Origin: Acidimicrobiales bacterium
GTDB lineage: Bacteria > Actinomycetota > Acidimicrobiia > Acidimicrobiales > Bog-793
NCBI GenBank assembly: GCA_035294725.1
Contig: DATGKK010000125.1
Coordinates: 502 to 64,501 of the forward strand
Reading direction: 5' to 3'
DNA: 64,000 nt
A program made the translations under genes and the position numbers. How positions within the stretch are numbered: position 1 is the first letter of the stretch; each line of letters starts with the position of its first letter. A model generated the notes under the pieces. The model was not told the DNA's origin and did not search any database. It worked only from the letters and a program-made list of their open reading frames with translations. Positions 2,392 through 11,565 of this stretch are shown in pieces.

Positions 2392-3966
2392 TCAGGCGCC
2401 CGCCTCAGGCCCTGTCACGCTCCGTGCGCTGATGTTGCCCTCGATGTGGCTCAGGTCGCGCTCGTCGTGGGGGCGGCCGGGTGGATCGATCTCTGCCCCG
2501 GAGCCGAGGAGGCGGCGGGTGGCCGCTTCGAGATCGTCGGGCGAGACCGCGCCCACGGCCATGACGGTGCCGTCCGAGTCGACGAAGACGTTCGTCGGTA
2601 CACCTCGCACCCCGACGGCGCGCGCGAACTCACCACGCTCGTCGAGCAGGACGGTGCCGTCCACGCCCCACAGCTCGCAGAAGCTGCGTGCCTCGTCGAG
2701 AGCGTTCACGCCCTCCCAGACATTCACGAGGATGATCTCCAGGCCCGACCGGCCGGTGCGTCGGCGCAGGTCCTCGATGACCGGCGCCTCCGCGTTGCAC
2801 GGGCCTCACCAGCTGGCGAAGAAGTTGAGGATGTACTTCTTCTCTGCCCACTCGACCTGGTGGCGAAGTGCCCCGGTGTGCAGATCGGGGAGCGCGAACT
2901 CCGGCAGCGGTCTCCCGACGAGCGGGTGCTCGATCGCTTCGACCCGCGAGGCGGGCGGCCCGGTGAGGTCGTCCTCGACGACCGTGATGGATCCCGTTCC
3001 GGCGTTGGCCACGAGGACGATCCGGGGGTCCTCCGGGTGCACGATGACCCCTCCGGGGGCGGCGCCGACCGCCACCCTCGCCCACTCGAGCCCGTCGCAA
3101 CCGAGGACGCTCATGCTCCCGTCGCCGCGGTTGGCGACGTAGATCCGATCCCCTGACGGCGCCGCCGTGATCCCGACCGGAGCGTTGGGGACGGGGAGCT
3201 CCTCCCGCACGCGATGGTCGTCAAGACCGATCCGTGCGATGGTGCCGGCGAGCGAATTGACGACGAACACCTCGTCACGATCGGGCACGACCACCGCCGC
3301 GCACGGACCCTCGCCCACGACGATCCGGTCGACCGCCTCCATGGCCTCCAGGTCCGCAACGGTCACCGAGCCGGTGACGAAGTTGACGCAGTAGGCCACG
3401 TTCCGTGCCCGATCGACGTCGACGGCGCCCGCGCCGAGCTCGGCCTCCACGGTGCCGAGGCGCTCCAGACGATCCACGTCGACGATGCTGAGTGTCGAGC
3501 CCATCGTGTCGCCGCAGTACAGGCGGCGGCGCTCGACGTCGATGGCGAGCCCGGCCGGATAGGCACCCACGGGGATCGTGGCAGTCACCTCGCCCACGTC
3601 GAGGTCGATGACGGAGACCTGGTTCGACCGGGCGTCCGCGGTGAACGCCCGGCGCGAGACGGGGTCGAGCACGATGTCGATCGGTTCCTGGCCGACCGCG
3701 ATCTCTCCGATCCGCTCGAGCTTCTCGAGGTCGACGACTGCGACGCTCCCCGAGCGCGAGCAGGCGACGTAGGCGCGGTTGGTCGTGCCGTCGACGACGA
3801 CGCCCTCCGGGTCGAGGCCGACCGCGACCTCACCTCTCACGCGGATCGCGGGATCGCTCGAGCCGGTCTCGAGATCGAGCCGGCAGCTCGCGCCGTACTC
3901 GAAGGACCACTCGGTCTGGCCACCCGCCTGCGCGTCCAACGCGGTCGGGCTGTCGTCCTCCAGCAT
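2392..3966 (-). CDS. YVTN-type beta-propeller repeat protein fused to a TlpA/ResA-like thioredoxin-fold domain; in-frame TGA (2806-2808) at the first Cys of W-C-G-P-C, candidate selenocysteine
   Basis: ORFs 2806..4008 and 2392..2727 share one frame and are separated by a single TGA. Read-through gives ...GRPLPEFALPDLHTGALRHQVEWAEKKYILNFFASW[TGA]GPCNAEAPVIEDL...GVRGVPTNVFVDSDG, a complete redoxin domain. The N-terminal half has repeated V/D/G-rich ~40-aa propeller units (NRAYVA, RRAFTA, RRLYCG, NVAYCV, DEVFVV, DRIYVA, PRIVLV). The likely start is ATG 3966 (MLEDD...), preceded by GGGAGAAAGGG. The TTG at 4008 is the ORF-track maximum. Confidence 0.6.
2758..2793 (-). promoter_or_regulatory. SECIS-like mRNA hairpin downstream of the in-frame UGA
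   Basis: The mRNA reads UGA-GGCCCGUGCAAC-GCG GA GGCGC C GGUC [AUCGAG] GACC U GCGCC GA CGC. That is 12 Watson-Crick pairs with one C/U mismatch and a symmetric GA/GA internal loop. The apical loop is 6 nt and contains G. The stem starts 12 nt after UGA. Confidence 0.45.
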
Positions 3967-4088
3967 GCGGCCCTTTCTCCCGGGGGCGCGCGAAGACGGC
4001 GAGCCCAAACGGCGTACAGCGCGGGGCCATTCTTAGCATCTCCCCGCTGGCCCGGACGAGCACCCGTGAGCGGGCTCGGGAGGCCGAC

Positions 4089-5120: not shown

Positions 5121-5486
5121 CGACGCCTGGGCGAGCTCGTCCGGGCAGGTAGCGGTCGCCGTCGTGGCTGCGGAGACGGTCGCTCCCCGTGTGCCCGGCG
5201 CCGCACCGCCCGTGGTCGCACCGGCCCGGGGCGAGACGGCTCCAGTGGCGGCCGCCGCCAGGACCAGCGCACTGGACGCGACGACCCAGGCGACCCGCCA
5301 CGCCGGCTTGCCCGGAAGGTCGGTGTGCGCGAGACGACGCCGAGCCCTTATGCCCCTACCCCCTGGTGCCGATGGTCCTTCGCAGGTGTGCCGCTGCGTC
5401 GCGGCCAGCCTATCCGAGCGAAGTGAGCGGGAGGGAGCCGGCCCGAGGTGTCGCGGGACCTCGGGCCGGGGCGAGCCGTGGGCGGG

Positions 5487-7061
5487 TCACGTGGCGGGCG
5501 CGGCTACGTCTGCTGGCGCCGCCACGGCTACGTCTGCTGGCGCCGCCACGGCCCGGGAGAGCTCGATCGTGCCATCGTCGACCTGTCGGCCGCGAAGGAG
5601 TCGCAGGTCGAGCAGGTAGTTCTGGTGCAGGCGCCACGGCGTCCGCGTCGCCTGCTTGGGCAGCCGGTCGAGAGAACGCCGGACGTAACCGGAGGTGAGC
5701 CCGATGAACGGTTCGGTGCCCATCCCGGGGTCGGGTGCCCTCGGGATCGCGAGGTCGTAGCCCTGCTCCTCCATGAACTTGAGCAGGCGGCAGACGTACC
5801 GGGCGCCGAGGTCCGCCTTCAAGGTCCACGACGCGTTCGTGTACCCGAAGGTGGATGCCAGGTTCGGCAGGCCCGTGAACATGATCCCCTTGTAGCTGAA
5901 GGTCGCCGAGAGATCGACAGCGTGCCCGTCCACGTCGAGCTCGATGCCGCCCAGGAGCTGAAAGTTGAGGCCCGTGGCCGTGACGACGACCTCGGCCTCC
6001 AGCTCCCCGCCGGAGGCGAGCCGCAGGCCGTGCTCGGTGAAGGCCTCGATCTCGTCGGTCACGACGCTGACCGCCTCTGCCCTGATGGCCTCAAAGAGGT
6101 CGGAGTCCGGGACGAAGCACATCCTCTGGTCCCAGGGGTCGTAGCGCGGGTTGAAGTGGGTGTCGACGTCGTAGCTGGACGGCAGGCTCTTTGCCACCCC
6201 CTTTCGGAGCACCCTCCTCATGAAGCGGGGCGCCCGCTGGCAGATCTGGTAGAGCACGATGGCGGCCAGGATGTTCTTCCAGCGCACCAGCGGGTAGACG
6301 GCGCGAGCCGGGAGGTGTCGACGCAGCAGGGCGGCGAAGGGATCGAGCGTCGGGACCGAGGCAACGTAGGACGGGGACCGCTGGAGCATGGTGACGTGGG
6401 CTGCCTTCTCCGCCATGGCCGGCACCAGAGTGACGGCCGTCGCACCGCTGCCGATCACGACCACCCGCTTGTTCTCGTAGTCGAGGTCCTCGGGCCAGTG
6501 CTGGGGATGGACGATCGTCCCCTCGAAGCGGTCCGCCTCGGGGAGCTCTGGCACATAGCCGGCGTCGTAGCGGTAGTAGCCACAGTTCAGGTAGAGGAAG
6601 GAGCAGGTGAGCTCCGAGCTGCGGCCCGTCGTCTCGTCGGCCACTTCGAGATGCCAGCGCGCTCTCGGGGTGGACCAACTGGCCTTCACGACGCGCTGGC
6701 GGTAGCGGATGTGCCGGTCGAGACCGTAGGCGGCGGCGGTCTCCCGGATGTAGCCGAGGATCGAGGGTCCATCGGCGAGCGTCTTCAGCTCGGTCCAGGG
6801 GTTGAAGGAGTAGCCGAGGGTGAACATGTCGGAGTCCGAGCGGATGCCCGGGTACCGGAACAGGTCCCAGGTGCCGCCCATGGACGCTCGCGCCTCGAGG
6901 ATGACGAAGCTCTTGCCCGGGCAGGCGTTCGAGAGGTGGCAGGCGGCCCCGATCCCCGAGAGGCCGGCACCCACCACGACCACATCGAAGTGCTCGGGCT
7001 CCGCAGAGAGGTAGTGCGGGGCCGTGCGCATGAGGGTAGCCGGCGTCCGCGTCTCGCTCAC
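5487..7061 (-). CDS. flavin-containing / Baeyer-Villiger monooxygenase (class B, EthA-like)
   Basis: 524-aa ORF with two Rossmann motifs (VVVGAGLSGIGAA and VIGSGATAV) and the BVMO fingerprint FEGTIVHPQHWP. Confidence 0.9.
   Translation of the reverse strand: MSETRTPATLMRTAPHYLSAEPEHFDVVVVGAGLSGIGAACHLSNACPGKSFVILEARASMGGTWDLFRYPGIRSDSDMFTLGYSFNPWTELKTLADGPSILGYIRETAAAYGLDRHIRYRQRVVKASWSTPRARWHLEVADETTGRSSELTCSFLYLNCGYYRYDAGYVPELPEADRFEGTIVHPQHWPEDLDYENKRVVVIGSGATAVTLVPAMAEKAAHVTMLQRSPSYVASVPTLDPFAALLRRHLPARAVYPLVRWKNILAAIVLYQICQRAPRFMRRVLRKGVAKSLPSSYDVDTHFNPRYDPWDQRMCFVPDSDLFEAIRAEAVSVVTDEIEAFTEHGLRLASGGELEAEVVVTATGLNFQLLGGIELDVDGHAVDLSATFSYKGIMFTGLPNLASTFGYTNASWTLKADLGARYVCRLLKFMEEQGYDLAIPRAPDPGMGTEPFIGLTSGYVRRSLDRLPKQATRTPWRLHQNYLLDLRLLRGRQVDDGTIELSRAVAAPADVAVAAPADVAAPAT
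5502..5549. repeat. perfect 24-bp x2 tandem duplication inside the 3-prime end of the monooxygenase gene
   Basis: ggctacgtctgctggcgccgccac occurs at 5502-5525 and again at 5526-5549. It encodes the repeated VAAPADVA C-terminal tail. Confidence 0.9.
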
Positions 7062-9607: not shown

Positions 9608-11565
9608 CGGCTACGGAGATCGACGTACCGTCCGGAGGGTCCTCGGACCAGAGCACCGAGCGAGACCCCGACCTACTTGGCACCCTCGAGGTCGAGCTGT
9701 CGGCGCGATCCCCTCGCCGGTGGAGACGCGTCGCCGCCGGGCTCGGTGCGACAGCGTTCTTCCTCCTCGTGGGGTTCCTCTGCTACTGGCCCGACTCGCC
9801 CATCGCGAGCGGCCGGATCGTGACCCGGCCCACGAGCGACCTCGCACAGGGCCTGTGGTTCGTCGAGTGGTTTGCCTTCGCCCTCACCCACGGGCTCAAC
9901 CCCTTTTACACCCACTACCTGCTCGCCCCGAAGGGCGCGAACCTTGCCCTCGACAACACGGCGCCGCTCCTCAGCCTCCTCGTGATGCCCGTCACGCTGC
10001 TCGCGGGCCCGCTCGCTGCCTTCAACCTCCTGTTCCGGCTGGGCGTGGGGCTCTCGGGGGCAAGCACCTACTTCATGCTCCGCCGGTACACGAGCTGGTG
10101 GCCCGCCGCAGCGCTCGGGGGCCTCGTGTTCGAGCTCAGCCCGTACCTGATGGGGCACGCTCACCGTCACGACTTCCTCACCTTCGTCGTCTTCGTGCCG
10201 ATGCTGGTCCTTCTCGTCGACGACTGGCTCTGGTCGTGCCGCAGGGGACCGGTCGCCTCCGGGTTGCTCGTCGGCCTCGTCGCGGCGCTGCAGTTCCTCG
10301 TCTCGGTGGAGGTGCTCGCCGGGACGGCGGTGGTGCTCGCCGGGACGGTGGCCGTCCTGGCAGCCCGCCACCGACAGGCGGTCCGCTCCCGGCTCGCGAG
10401 GCTGTGGAAAGGCGGCCTCGCCGCTGGAGGGCTCTTCCTCGTCCTCACGGGATACCCGCTCTGGATGCTGCTCTACGGGCCGCAGCGCCCCGCGGCCGGC
10501 CTGCACGACCTCTCAAATCTCGCCCACTACCACGGCGACCTCCTCGCGCCGCTGTTCCCGAGCAGCTTCACCTGGTGGCACTTCAGCAACGTCGCGCAGC
10601 GGTTCGTGTACGCGAGCCGGGTGGAGGACGGCTTCTATCTTGGCGCCCCGCTCATCGTTCTGCTCGGCTGCCTCGCCATCCGTTTCCGGCGCGATCGCGT
10701 CGTCGCGATCGGAGCCCTTGTCGCCATCGCCGCCTTTGTCCTCGGGCTCGGCCCCCGGCTCTACGTCGACGGGAAGGACCTGCACGTGCCGCTCCCGTTC
10801 GCGCTCCTCACCCACCTGCCCTTGCTGAGGAACCTCGAGCCGGCTCGGATGACCCTGTTCATGTGGCTCGGCGCCGTCACCGTCCTCGCCGTAGGGCTCG
10901 ACCGGCTCCGCGCCGCCGGCTGGCGGTGGCGATCCCCGGCCGCCACCGAGCGAGGGCGCCACCTGAGGTCGGCATCTCCCGGGGCGTGGCCGCGGGCGCT
11001 GCTCGCCTGCGTCGCCGTCGCCGTCGCGCTCGCCCCTGTGATGCCGCGGCTGCCGATCGCTTCGAAACGTGTGGGTGCGCCGCCGTTCTTCGTGACGAGC
11101 CGCGACCTCCGGCTCGTCCCGACCGGTGCGCTCGTGCTGACCTTCCCCTACAACCTCGCTCCCTACGACGCCCCGATGGTCTGGCAGGTGACCTCCCGCA
11201 TGAGGTACCGCATCCTCGGCGGGGAGGCAACGGTTCCCGGCCCGGAGGGCGTTGCGCTCAGCCACCAGCGTCCTCAGGCCCCGGCACCCCTCGCGACGCT
11301 GCTCGTCTCGTCGTGGCGCAACTCACACGGACAGTGGGACCTGCATCCGCCCGACGGACCGGAGCTCGTTCCGATGCTGCGCTCGTACTTACGTCGCGAG
11401 GGTGTCGACGACGTGCTCGTGGTCCAAAAGGCGCTCCACTCCGTCCTTGTGGCGAGGATCGTCACCGAGGCCCTCGGCAGCTCGCCGCTGGTGGTGGGCC
11501 GTGTCGACGTCTGGCTACATGTGCGCTCCGCCCTCGATGGTCGACACCCCGATCGCCGCAGCTGA
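9589..11565 (+). CDS. large polytopic membrane protein, GT-C-fold glycosyltransferase-like
   Basis: 658-aa ORF with more than 10 hydrophobic helices followed by a soluble C-terminal domain. The start is GTG 9589 or GTG 9604 (GTGA overlap with the GMC stop). The family call is architecture-based only. Confidence 0.6.
   Translation: MGTVVVTATEIDVPSGGSSDQSTERDPDLLGTLEVELSARSPRRWRRVAAGLGATAFFLLVGFLCYWPDSPIASGRIVTRPTSDLAQGLWFVEWFAFALTHGLNPFYTHYLLAPKGANLALDNTAPLLSLLVMPVTLLAGPLAAFNLLFRLGVGLSGASTYFMLRRYTSWWPAAALGGLVFELSPYLMGHAHRHDFLTFVVFVPMLVLLVDDWLWSCRRGPVASGLLVGLVAALQFLVSVEVLAGTAVVLAGTVAVLAARHRQAVRSRLARLWKGGLAAGGLFLVLTGYPLWMLLYGPQRPAAGLHDLSNLAHYHGDLLAPLFPSSFTWWHFSNVAQRFVYASRVEDGFYLGAPLIVLLGCLAIRFRRDRVVAIGALVAIAAFVLGLGPRLYVDGKDLHVPLPFALLTHLPLLRNLEPARMTLFMWLGAVTVLAVGLDRLRAAGWRWRSPAATERGRHLRSASPGAWPRALLACVAVAVALAPVMPRLPIASKRVGAPPFFVTSRDLRLVPTGALVLTFPYNLAPYDAPMVWQVTSRMRYRILGGEATVPGPEGVALSHQRPQAPAPLATLLVSSWRNSHGQWDLHPPDGPELVPMLRSYLRREGVDDVLVVQKALHSVLVARIVTEALGSSPLVVGRVDVWLHVRSALDGRHPDRRS

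What the first reader, a model, noticed from the sequence alone, without database searches (positions are those of the whole stretch)
2758..2793. SECIS-like stem-loop starting 12 nt after the in-frame UGA
The mRNA downstream of the UGA folds by eye as GCG-GA-GGCGC-C-GGUC-[AUCGAG]-GACC-U-GCGCC-GA-CGC.
- It has 12 Watson-Crick pairs, one C/U mismatch and a symmetric tandem GA/GA internal loop.
- The apical loop is 6 nt, contains G and begins 27 nt after the UGA.
- In bacteria the SelB-binding SECIS lies in the coding sequence immediately 3-prime of the UGA, with the apical loop a few tens of nt downstream. The geometry here is compatible with that.
- Caveat: in a genome this GC-rich, stable hairpins arise by chance fairly often, so this supports the Sec reading but does not prove it.
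Basis: seen in the sequence. Interest (0 to 1): 0.6.

Follow-up and report, generated by a model that had tools for sequence, protein, structure and literature searches.

The report
Selenocysteine insertion hairpin in propeller–thioredoxin gene
The hairpin is real and is very probably the RNA signal that makes the ribosome read a UGA "stop" as selenocysteine in an unannotated propeller–thioredoxin enzyme, which public databases split into two truncated genes in at least 80 soil actinobacterial species.

Summary
The hairpin at 2793..2758 (minus strand) is exactly as described and starts 12 nt after an in-frame TGA (2808..2806). That TGA replaces the first Cys of a WCGPC active site in a YncE-type beta-propeller / TlpA-ResA-like thioredoxin fusion.

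On its own the fold is unremarkable: dinucleotide-shuffle z is -1.75, and 0.7% of 42-nt windows here are as stable.

Comparative evidence supports a SECIS role:
- All 81 orthologs examined (80 species plus the window) have TGA there, never TGC/TGT/TAA/TAG, followed by a conserved in-frame thioredoxin domain.
- All 80 foldable orthologs place a hairpin loop 26-28 nt after the UGA.
- Synonymous-codon resampling gives z = -3.5 for the window (family mean -1.9; control windows -0.08).
- Four-fold-degenerate sites are least variable exactly there.
- Three Cys-form (TGC) homologs with the same local peptide lack the hairpin.
- tRNA-Sec lies beside the gene in 17/80 loci and selA-selB-selD in 6/80.

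Caveats:
- The loop (AUCGAG/UCGA) lacks the consensus G at loop position 1-2.
- The GA/GA internal loop is not conserved.
- Event-based covariation is modest.
- The window holds no Sec machinery.
- Neither Rfam nor NCBIfam claims it.

Verdict: a new member of a known kind.

The parts
2392..3966 (-). Read-through coding sequence of the selenoprotein: 524 codons counted from the first ATG at 3966, including the stop at 2394..2392. The open frame reaches back to a TTG at 4008, so the true start is uncertain. Gene callers would end it at 2806.
   Evidence: Translation. Pfam Redoxin and AhpC-TSA domains straddle the UGA. The frame is conserved on both sides of the TGA in 81/81 orthologs.
3028..3819 (-). 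YncE/YVTN-type beta-propeller domain (residues about 50-313).
   Evidence: Pfam PF21783 YNCE, E = 1.4e-9, above cutoff. TIGR02276 YVTN repeat above cutoff.
2536..2919 (-). TlpA/ResA/DsbE-like thioredoxin-fold domain (residues about 350-477) with the active site W-U-G-P-C.
   Evidence: Pfam Redoxin E = 2.9e-17 and AhpC-TSA E = 3.2e-14. The best solved relative is 3gl3_A (DsbE-like, E = 2.9e-15), and its WCGPC aligns to the site.
2806..2808 (-). In-frame UGA, the predicted selenocysteine codon (residue 387). It replaces the N-terminal Cys of the CxxC motif.
   Evidence: TGA in 81/81 orthologs, never another codon. TGC in the Cys-form homologs L082-L085.
2794..2805 (-). 12-nt spacer (GGC CCG UGC AAC = G-P-C-N) between the UGA and the hairpin.
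   Evidence: Third positions here vary freely (Gly codon entropy 1.66 bits), unlike those in the hairpin.
2758..2793 (-). The SECIS-like hairpin as a whole, made of 12 codons encoding A-E-A-P-V-I-E-D-L-R-R-R.
2763..2788 (-). Conserved core minihelix: middle stem GGCGC/GCGCC (2788-2784 / 2767-2763), C.U mismatch (2783/2768), apical stem GGUC/GACC (2782-2779 / 2772-2769) and the loop.
   Evidence: Pairs 23-44, 24-43, 25-42, 29-38 and 30-37 are paired in 92-100% of sequences. RNAalifold recovers this core with RIBOSUM scoring and within clade A. The Ala codon GCG at +7 is invariant, 79/79.
2773..2778 (-). Apical loop AUCGAG. The family consensus is (A/C)UCGA(G), with U32, G34 and A35 invariant.
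   Evidence: Invariant columns. Loop census: UCGA 33, AUCGAG 19, AUCGAA 7, CUCGA 6.
2758..2762 (-). 3' half of the lower stem (CGC, 2760-2758) and of the tandem G.A internal loop (GA, 2762-2761). Their partners are 2793-2791 and 2790-2789. This is the variable basal part of the hairpin.
   Evidence: Pairs 19-48 and 20-47 are closed differently between lineages (G-C, G-U, A-U or C-G) and are open in the window.

Best explanation
The hairpin is a bacterial-type selenocysteine insertion sequence (SECIS) lying inside the coding region of a selenoprotein gene. The gene encodes a cytoplasmic-looking YncE-type beta-propeller fused to a TlpA/ResA-like thioredoxin-fold domain. In that domain the attacking Cys of the CxxC motif is selenocysteine (W-U-G-P-C).

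Proposed mechanism (inferred from the E. coli paradigm as summarised in PMC13188914, not shown here):
1. SelB.GTP.Sec-tRNASec binds the apical part of the hairpin: the 4-5 bp apical stem, the (A/C)UCGA(G) loop and probably the conserved C.U mismatch beneath.
2. The ribosome approaches. The fixed 26-28 nt distance from the UGA to the loop places SelB at the A site when the UGA arrives.
3. The basal helix melts, Sec is inserted instead of termination, and translation continues through the 12 hairpin codons (AEAPVIEDLRRR) into the rest of the thioredoxin fold.

Shown here: the hairpin exists, it is positionally invariant across 80 species, it is maintained by synonymous-codon choice, and it accompanies an obligate TGA at a catalytic-Cys position in a lineage that places tRNA-Sec and selABD next to the gene.

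Inferred: SelB binding, actual Sec insertion, and which nucleotides are recognised.
For: UGA identity:
- 55/55 complete database homologs end at ...FASW.
- 81/81 genomic orthologs have TGA after FASW, followed by the in-frame sequence GPCNAEAP... and a thioredoxin domain of 100-150 aa. The retrieval pattern ended at the Trp, so it was blind to the next codon.
- The UGA aligns to the first Cys of WCGPC in solved DsbE/ResA structures and to TGC in Cys-form homologs.

Hairpin:
- It is the MFE fold in the window.
- A hairpin loop lies over the same columns in 80/80 orthologs, with spacing of 26-28 nt and 11-15 pairs.
- 83% of cells pair, against 31-54% in slid registers. Covariation score is 0.161 against 0.112 for shuffles (0/500 reach it). 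Pair 28-39 occurs as UG, GC, UA, AU, GU and CG.
- Frequent G.U pairs (16-51, 19-48, 22-45, 28-39) point to a sense-strand RNA structure rather than a DNA palindrome.

RNA-level selection separated from protein-level selection:
- Synonymous resampling gives z = -3.5 for the window, a family mean of -1.9 and 95% below zero.
- 560 control windows in the same genes average z = -0.08, while the SECIS window averages -2.75.
- Four-fold-site entropy is 0.62 bits in the hairpin against 1.16 elsewhere (p = 0.011). The lowest sliding mean in the whole gene falls at codons +7..+20.

Specificity:
- The covariance model finds one site per locus (61-81 bits) and nothing else above 22 bits except reverse-complement echoes.
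- Cys-form homologs lack it.

Machinery:
- tRNA-Sec(UCA) lies in the flanks of 17/80 loci.
- selA, selB (with SelB winged-helix and beta-barrel domains), selD and tRNA-Sec lie divergently adjacent in L020. selABD is present in 6/80 loci.
Against: - The loop fails one of the four published consensus bSECIS criteria, a G in loop position 1 or 2. It is met in only 5/80 orthologs and not in the window (criteria from PMC13188914).
- No Rfam SECIS family matches, even at E <= 10.
- Default RNAalifold on all 80 sequences did not recover the hairpin. It did so only with RIBOSUM scoring or within clade A.
- Counted as evolutionary events on a tree, there are only 4 double-sided compensatory changes and 65 one-sided pair-preserving changes against 60 pair-breaking ones. 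Slid controls show 0-4 and 16-47. Covariation is therefore supportive, not decisive.
- Coding constraint and RNA constraint are entangled for the invariant loop bases.
- The 64-kb window has no tRNA-Sec, selA, selB or selD, so Sec competence of this particular organism is unverified.
- There is no expression or selenium-labelling evidence.
Confidence: 0.85

Rival explanations
1. By-product hairpin. The stem-loop is simply what a conserved peptide (AEAPVIEDLRRR) looks like when written in GC-rich codons. Under this reading it has no RNA function, and UGA recoding, if it happens at all, is directed by something else.
For: - The peptide is highly conserved, and E..P..L is typical of TlpA/ResA proteins after the CxxC motif.
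- The invariant loop bases U32, G34 and A35 are first or second codon positions.
- The dinucleotide-shuffle z is only -1.75.
- Equally stable 42-mers occur about once per kb in this window.
- Event-based compensatory changes are few.
Against: - Holding the protein fixed and resampling synonymous codons gives z = -3.5 for the window and a mean of -1.9 over 80 orthologs. The same test on 560 other windows averages -0.08.
- Third positions of four-fold codons are least variable exactly in the hairpin. For example, one Ala codon is GCG in 79/79, while the Gly codon two positions after the UGA uses all four bases.
- Cys-form homologs with the same GPCNAEAP(V/S)I peptide do not form it.
Confidence: 0.06
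2. SelB-independent read-through stimulator. The hairpin is a downstream structure that slows termination at the UGA, so that a near-cognate tRNA (Trp, Cys or Arg) or a suppressor reads through without selenocysteine.
For: - Stable structures a few nucleotides 3' of a stop codon are known to promote read-through in other systems (general knowledge).
- The loop lacks the consensus SelB-type G at position 1 or 2.
- There is no Sec machinery in the window.
- One public pipeline translated the codon as Trp (P0121).
Against: - The codon sits at the catalytic nucleophile of a CxxC motif, where only Cys or Sec gives an active enzyme.
- TGA is kept in 81/81 with no drift to TGG, TGC or CGA, as would be expected if another residue were acceptable.
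- tRNA-Sec lies beside the gene in 17/80 species and selABD in 6/80.
Confidence: 0.05
3. True stop. The TGA ends a propeller gene, and the thioredoxin-like sequence downstream is a separate gene or a decayed remnant. The hairpin would then be an intergenic regulatory or terminator-like element.
For: - This is how every public annotation treats it: about 55 protein clusters end at FASW, and about 90 short clusters start downstream at internal GTG/ATG codons.
Against: - The stop is always TGA, always in frame, with zero spacer, and always exactly at the Cys position.
- The Pfam Redoxin domain spans the stop (residues 350-477, UGA at 387), so neither half is a complete fold.
- The downstream part is conserved as protein in 80 species with no frame disruption.
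- No T-run follows the hairpin.
Confidence: 0.02

Closest known systems
Escherichia coli fdhF/fdnG/fdoG SECIS, the experimentally defined bacterial SECIS (as summarised in PMC13188914; details of G23/U24 and the bulged U17 are from my own knowledge)
   Same: - A stem-loop in the coding sequence directly 3' of the Sec-UGA.
- A small apical loop on a short upper helix.
- An irregularity a few pairs below the loop (here a conserved C.U mismatch).
- A fixed distance from the UGA to the loop, within the 16-37 nt range.
- A dispensable and variable basal helix.
   Different: - There is no sequence similarity.
- The loop is (A/C)UCGA(G) with G at position 3 or 4, rather than GGUC-like with G/U at the start.
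- The irregularity is a C.U mismatch with the U on the 3' strand, not a 5' bulged U.
- The hairpin starts 12 nt after the UGA rather than including it.
- SelB binding is untested.
Consensus bSECIS model / bSECISearch (Zhang & Gladyshev 2005, criteria quoted in PMC13188914 Fig. 2A)
   Same: Loop of 3-9 nt (here 6), upper stem of at least 4 bp (here 4), spacing of 16-37 nt (here 27) and MFE <= -7.5 kcal/mol (here -24.9).
   Different: The criterion 'G in one of the first two loop positions' is not met in the window or in 75/80 orthologs. The review itself notes that a subset of bSECIS elements fall outside the model.
UxxC thioredoxin-fold bacterial selenoproteins: 'Prx-like thiol:disulfide oxidoreductase' (PF00578), 'Thiol:disulfide interchange protein' (PF13098) and 'thiol-disulfide isomerase-like protein' (PMC1088965, PMC13188914)
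   Same: - A thioredoxin or AhpC-TSA fold.
- Sec at the first position of a UxxC redox motif.
- Cys-form homologs exist at the domain level.
   Different: - This family is a C-terminal fusion to a roughly 340-residue YncE-type beta-propeller.
- It occurs in Acidimicrobiia, Gaiellaceae and other Actinomycetota.
- No Cys-form of the fusion was seen among its close relatives.
- 'Propeller' does not occur in the 2026 review, and no paper in the library pairs YncE with selenoprotein.
NCBIfam NF041054, 'ResA-like WAxxUGC motif-containing protein' (curated selenoprotein family)
   Same: A ResA-like domain with Sec in the active-site motix U-G-(P)-C context.
   Different: It scores 46.8 bits against a cutoff of 300, the motif is WUGPC rather than WAxxUGC, and the architecture differs. 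It is not a member.
Mycobacterial fdhA SECIS, the only well-described actinobacterial SECIS (PMC13449736)
   Same: An actinobacterial host, a GC-rich stem-loop with bulges immediately 3' of the UGA, and selC next to selAB in some species.
   Different: That element is detected by Rfam SECIS models and this one is not. It serves a different protein family, formate dehydrogenase.

Membership tests
Bacterial SECIS, consensus structural model (bSECISearch criteria, PMC13188914 Fig. 2A) | A stem-loop in the coding region immediately downstream of an in-frame UGA | tested here: met
   The hairpin at 2793..2758 begins 12 nt after the UGA at 2808..2806. The same holds in 80/80 orthologs.
Bacterial SECIS, consensus structural model (bSECISearch criteria, PMC13188914 Fig. 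2A) | An apical loop of 3-9 nt on an upper stem of 4-16 bp | tested here: met
   The window has a 6-nt loop and a 4-bp upper stem, then a C.U mismatch, then 5 bp. In the orthologs the loops are 3-8 nt and the upper stem is at least 4 bp in 70/80.
Bacterial SECIS, consensus structural model (bSECISearch criteria, PMC13188914 Fig. 2A) | [quoted passage not shown] | tested here: not met
   The window loop is AUCGAG, with G at positions 4 and 6. In the family, G is at position 3 (38 sequences) or 4 (35). [quoted passage not shown] The element is therefore not filed under the consensus model. It is filed only as working like a bSECIS.
Bacterial SECIS, consensus structural model (bSECISearch criteria, PMC13188914 Fig. 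2A) | A spacing of 16-37 nt between the UGA and the apical loop | tested here: met
   27 nt in the window and 26-28 nt in all 80 orthologs.
Bacterial SECIS, consensus structural model (bSECISearch criteria, PMC13188914 Fig. 2A) | MFE <= -7.5 kcal/mol | tested here: met
   -24.9 kcal/mol for the 42-nt segment. The family range is -11.8 to -30.2.
Bacterial SECIS (functional definition) | Binds SelB.GTP.Sec-tRNASec and is required for Sec insertion at the upstream UGA | not testable with these tools
   This needs a SelB gel-shift or a reporter with stem and loop mutants. The only support here is indirect: synonymous-site constraint and absence from the Cys forms.
Rfam SECIS families | A covariance-model match at or above the gathering score | tested here: not met
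   There is no match at the gathering threshold in the window. No SECIS family matches at E <= 10 in 2600-2950.
Eukaryotic/archaeal-type SECIS (GA quartet or kink-turn core) | Conserved tandem sheared G.A pairs at the base of the upper helix | tested here: not met
   The window has a tandem GA/GA, but the positions are not conserved. Pair 19-48 is G-C or G-U in 56/78 sequences. Pair 20-47 is A-U or C-G in 37/78.
Selenoprotein gene (Sec-UGA) | The UGA aligns with a catalytic Cys in homologs, and protein conservation continues in frame on both sides | tested here: met
   Pfam Redoxin spans the UGA. WCGPC of 3gl3_A aligns to the site. The homologs L082-L085 have TGC. 81/81 have TGA with a conserved downstream domain.
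Selenoprotein gene (Sec-UGA) | The host genome encodes tRNA-Sec, SelA, SelB and SelD | tested here: inconclusive
   None is present in the 64-kb window, and the rest of this genome is not available. In orthologous loci, tRNA-Sec is adjacent in 17/80 and selABD in 6/80.
TlpA/ResA/DsbE-like thiol:disulfide oxidoreductase (Pfam Redoxin PF08534 / AhpC-TSA PF00578) | A domain score above the curated cutoff and a CxxC-type active site after the first beta-strand | tested here: met
   Redoxin scores 63.3 bits (cutoff 26.6) and AhpC-TSA 53.4 bits (cutoff 26). The motif is W-U-G-P-C. No NCBIfam equivalog (ResA, DsbE, TlpA, StoA) reaches its cutoff, so this is membership at superfamily level only.
NCBIfam NF041054 ResA-like WAxxUGC selenoprotein | A score of at least 300 bits | tested here: not met
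   46.8 bits.

The most novel reading that the evidence does not exclude
The hairpin may represent a distinct recognition class of bacterial SECIS. Its features are a (C/A)UCGA(G) loop with the conserved G at position 3 or 4, a conserved C.U mismatch five pairs below the loop, and a fixed 26-28 nt spacing. It would be read by the SelB of Acidimicrobiia and Thermoleophilia. It would serve a previously undescribed, apparently obligately Sec-dependent selenoprotein family (YncE propeller fused to a TlpA-like UGPC domain) that is widespread in uncultured soil Actinomycetota and is systematically mis-annotated as two genes. If so, the selenoproteome of a phylum thought to use Sec almost only in formate dehydrogenase is under-counted, and consensus-pattern SECIS finders miss it.
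Probability: 0.35. Interest if true: 0.6.

Novelty: new member of a known kind. Interest (0 to 1): 0.5.

Why it matters
- **Annotation.** It corrects a systematic error. In every public source examined, this gene is split into a 'YncE/YVTN beta-propeller protein' ending at ...FASW and a short 'TlpA family protein disulfide reductase, partial'.
- **Selenoproteome.** It adds a widespread selenoprotein family to soil Actinomycetota. At least 223 GTDB species had a relative and 80 were examined. The phylum's known Sec use is dominated by formate dehydrogenase.
- **SECIS models.** The element satisfies geometry, spacing and stability rules but not the loop-G rule of the standard bSECIS model. It also escapes Rfam. 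That makes it a concrete test case for how SelB recognition has diverged and for improving SECIS and selenoprotein predictors.
- **Biochemistry.** A propeller tethered to a Sec-based thiol:disulfide oxidoreductase, with no Cys-form orthologs found, is an unusual architecture with unknown function.

Tried and rejected
- **Rfam.** A gathering-threshold scan of the window and a permissive scan of 2600-2950 found no SECIS match. The only result was a noise hit to aceE-II on the opposite strand (14.6 bits against a gathering score of 100).
- **Default RNAalifold.** On the 80-sequence alignment it returned a trivial 3-bp helix. Re-running with RIBOSUM scoring, or within clade A, recovered the core. 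I therefore do not use alifold as evidence either way.
- **Outer stem.** The stem enclosing the hairpin (just after the UGA pairing with the CGG-UCG region) was seen in the first MFE fold. It was rejected as a selected feature: flank-only synonymous resampling gave z = +0.24, and resampled flanks formed more outer pairs than the real ones.
- **GA/GA tandem.** Considered as a kink-turn or SECIS-core analogue and rejected because it is not conserved.
- **Second copies.** A covariance-model scan for the element behind other UGAs in the window and 80 loci found none. Weak hits at L066:2850 and L073:5351 lie inside a glutaredoxin-like gene with no UGA.
- **P0121 'FASWWGPC'.** Considered as a Trp-form relative and rejected, because the DNA has TGA.
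- **CMD/AhpD-family gene.** It lies between tRNA-Sec and the gene in L030. Considered as a second selenoprotein and rejected, because it has an ordinary CxxC motif.
- **Sec machinery in the window.** None was found.
- **Conserved neighbourhood.** Clustering across loci showed no universal partner gene, and the output was clouded by GC-rich shadow ORFs.
- **Tree-based counting.** Compensatory events are too few (4) to carry the argument alone.
Full report
**1. The observation**

On the minus strand, 2793..2758 reads GCG-GA-GGCGC-C-GGUC-[AUCGAG]-GACC-U-GCGCC-GA-CGC.
- 12 Watson-Crick pairs;
- one C/U mismatch;
- a tandem GA/GA internal loop;
- a 6-nt loop;
- a hairpin start 12 nt after the TGA at 2808..2806;
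- a loop start 27 nt after that TGA.

ViennaRNA returns this hairpin as the MFE of 2740-2810(-) and adds an outer stem.

Taken alone, the fold is not remarkable:
- The z-score against dinucleotide shuffles is -1.75, and 13 of 200 shuffles fold as well.
- In the 71% GC window, 0.69% of all 42-nt segments are as stable. That is 131 distinct sites, about one per kb of single strand.
- Of 1136 TGA triplets, 9 are followed by an equally stable segment in the same register.

**2. What the UGA interrupts**

Reading through the TGA gives a 524-residue protein counted from the ATG at 3966. It has a YncE/YVTN-type beta-propeller at residues about 50-313. It also has a Redoxin/AhpC-TSA thioredoxin-fold domain at residues 350-477, which spans the UGA at residue 387. 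The local motif is F-A-S-W-[UGA]-G-P-C. The best solved relatives are DsbE/ResA/CcmG/TlpA-type thiol:disulfide oxidoreductases, and the UGA aligns with the first Cys of their WCGPC (3gl3_A, E = 2.9e-15).

**3. Family-wide behaviour of the UGA**

A search of 5.8 billion proteins returned 55 complete homologs at 49-65% identity. Every one ends in ...FASW. None contains the thioredoxin domain.

A scan of one genome per GTDB species used peptide patterns that stop at the Trp, so it was blind to the next codon. It found 223 relatives, and the best 80 loci were fetched. They come from Acidimicrobiia, Gaiellaceae/Thermoleophilia and other Actinomycetota MAGs.

In all 80 loci plus the window, the codon after FASW is TGA. 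It is never TAA, TAG, TGC, TGT or TGG. The frame continues into GPCNAEAP(V/F/I)(I/L)E(D/E)LR... and a conserved thioredoxin domain of 100-150 residues.

A second protein search with the thioredoxin half found about 90 short clusters that begin just after the UGA. These are the other halves of split gene calls. One protein appeared to have Trp at the site (P0121), but its DNA has TGA. A Streptomyces coelicoflavus isolate assembly also carries the gene with the TGA, the hairpin and an intact downstream domain, next to a transposase and an integrase.

**4. Is the hairpin conserved?**

Sixty nucleotides from the TGA align without gaps in 80 sequences. In every one of the 80, the MFE of the 42-nt segment places a hairpin loop over the same columns:
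- UGA-to-loop spacing is 26-28 nt.
- There are 11-15 pairs.
- The loops are UCGA (33), AUCGAG (19), AUCGAA (7), CUCGA (6) and rare variants.

For one fixed-register structure (columns 15-25/42-52 and 27-31/36-40), 83.3% of cells are paired, against 31-54% when the 3' partners are slid. The covariation score is 0.161 against 0.112 for shuffles, and 0 of 500 shuffles reach it. Pair 28-39 occurs as UG, GC, UA, AU, GU and CG. This includes Val-to-Ile (GUC to AUC) matched by a synonymous GAC-to-GAU change in one clade, and a rebuilt GUUCC/GGAAC stem in the Gaiellaceae. A subclade encoding E-D-V keeps a 5-bp apical stem through a 1-nt register shift.

The basal part is closed differently in different lineages, and the window's GA/GA internal loop is not conserved.

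There are honest limits to this evidence. Default RNAalifold on all 80 sequences failed; it recovered the core only with RIBOSUM scoring or within clade A. Counted as events on a tree, there are 4 double-sided compensatory changes and 65 one-sided pair-preserving changes against 60 pair-breaking ones. Slid controls give 0-4 and 16-47. Covariation is supportive, not decisive.

**5. Separating RNA constraint from protein constraint**

This is the key test, because the hairpin is made of 12 conserved codons (AEAPVIEDLRRR).

Synonymous resampling keeps each protein fixed and draws codons from the gene's own usage.

| Test set | Result |
|---|---|
| Window, 42-nt segment | -24.9 against -14.6 +/- 2.9 kcal/mol; z = -3.5; 0 of 300 as stable |
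| 80 orthologs | mean z = -1.9; 95% below zero; 46% below -2 |
| 560 other 14-codon windows, same genes | mean z = -0.08, sd 1.03 |
| Post-UGA window in those 10 genes | mean z = -2.75 |

In the window's gene, the post-UGA segment is the most stable and the most extreme of 57 windows.

Third positions of conserved four-fold codons have a mean entropy of 0.62 bits inside the hairpin against 1.16 elsewhere (p = 0.011). The lowest sliding mean in the whole gene falls at codons +7..+20. One Ala codon is GCG in 79/79, whereas the Gly codon right after the UGA uses all four bases.

Three Cys-form (TGC) stand-alone TlpA-like homologs share NFFASWCGPCNAEAP(V/S)I. They do not form the hairpin: each folds into 2-3 small stems, with z from -1.4 to +0.4.

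The outer stem is not selected. Flank-only resampling gives z = +0.24.

**6. Link to the Sec machinery**

ARAGORN finds tRNA-Sec (anticodon UCA) in the flanks of 17/80 loci, often 300-450 nt upstream of the gene. In L020 the gene is divergently adjacent to four components:
- selA (PF03841, E = 1e-92);
- selB (EF-Tu GTPase, SelB beta-barrel and SelB winged-helix 3);
- selD;
- tRNA-Sec.

selABD lie within the flanks in 6/80 loci. The 64-kb window itself has none of these. Its immediate neighbours are an acyl-CoA-synthetase-type enzyme and a DUF4185-like protein.

**7. Comparison with what is known**

The published consensus bSECIS model requires four things (PMC13188914):
1. a 3-9 nt loop on a 4-16 bp upper stem;
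2. a G in one of the first two loop positions;
3. 16-37 nt between the UGA and the loop;
4. MFE <= -7.5 kcal/mol.

This element meets the first, third and fourth. It fails the second in the window and in 75/80 orthologs. The same review states that a subset of bSECIS elements fall outside the model.

No Rfam family matches. A preprint on another Acidimicrobiia order likewise found Rfam SECIS models uninformative for bacterial elements.

UxxC thioredoxin-fold selenoproteins are long known (PMC1088965; PMC13188914). This propeller fusion, however, reaches no NCBIfam selenoprotein model: NF041054 scores 47 bits against a cutoff of 300. 'Propeller' does not occur in the 2026 review, and no paper in the library pairs YncE with selenoprotein.

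A covariance model of the UGA plus hairpin finds exactly one site per locus and nothing else.

**8. Verdict**

It works like a bacterial SECIS.

It is not filed under the consensus bSECIS pattern or any Rfam family, because the loop-G criterion and the model matches were tested and not met. It is best described as a new member of a known kind: a family-specific SECIS in a previously unannotated selenoprotein family. There is an open possibility, about 0.35, that its loop represents a distinct SelB-recognition class.

SelB binding, actual Sec insertion and the Sec competence of this particular organism remain untested.

Noticed in passing
window 2392-4008 (-); P0001-P0055 and P0122-P0215: Every public gene call splits this gene at the UGA. 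About 55 clusters are annotated as 'YVTN/YncE beta-propeller protein' ending in ...FASW. About 90 short clusters are annotated as 'TlpA family protein disulfide reductase, partial' or hypothetical, and start at internal GTG/ATG codons after the UGA.
   Followed up: yes
L081:742-1263 (JGI 3300064781, protein P0121): The JGI call reads FASW-W-GPC, but the DNA has TGA. The pipeline evidently applied a TGA=Trp code to this 1.5-kb contig and so produced a full-length but mistranslated product.
   Followed up: yes
window 2749-2751 (-) (Arg codon of R-S-G, 19 codons after the UGA; alignment codon +20): This Arg codon is CGG in 79/79 orthologs, although the neighbouring Arg codons vary freely at the third position. 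It lies outside the supported hairpin, and the outer-stem explanation was rejected, so the invariance is unexplained.
   Followed up: partly
L066:~2790-2990 and L073:~5290-5490 (+), about 0.8 kb downstream of the UGA in Gaiellaceae loci: A glutaredoxin/AhpF-N-terminal-like ORF (...AIEANEFPRLAEEMEVWAVPRIAVNG...) follows the selenoprotein gene in some Gaiellaceae. It could be a redox partner. The window does not have it; an acyl-CoA synthetase follows there instead.
   Followed up: partly
L030:4864-5427 (-) and tRNA-Sec at L030:5624-5717 (-): In a clade of Acidimicrobiia loci, a CMD/AhpD-family gene (CxxC form, TRECDGCIASH) and tRNA-Sec sit directly upstream of the selenoprotein gene without selABD. 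This suggests selC travels with the gene.
   Followed up: partly
L086 (Streptomyces coelicoflavus GCA_042734225.1, JBHWEO010000104.1), gene at 10001-11110 plus read-through to about 11420: A cultured-isolate assembly carries an intact copy with the TGA, the hairpin (-23.3 kcal/mol) and the thioredoxin domain. It is flanked by a Transposase_mut gene and a phage-type integrase, which suggests horizontal acquisition (or assembly contamination). Whether this strain has Sec machinery was not checked.
   Followed up: partly
16 Gaiellaceae loci at about -2.8 kb (e.g. L056:3866-4682 (-)) and L086:6659-7459 (-): A GPR1/FUN34/YaaH (SatP-like) membrane protein gene recurs upstream of the selenoprotein gene, and it is also present next to the Streptomyces copy.
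   Followed up: no
L064, L067, L072, L076, L078-L080 (subclade encoding E-D-V, GAG GAC GUG): The apical stem is kept at 5 bp by a 1-nt register shift with a 5-nt loop (CUCGA). The fixed-register pair counts score these as broken pairs.
   Followed up: partly
window 2765-2946 (+): There is a weak Rfam match to aceE-II on the opposite strand (14.6 bits against a gathering score of 100, E = 0.11). It was judged to be noise.
   Followed up: yes
window 1-64000: ARAGORN finds no tRNA gene of any kind in the 64-kb window.
   Followed up: no
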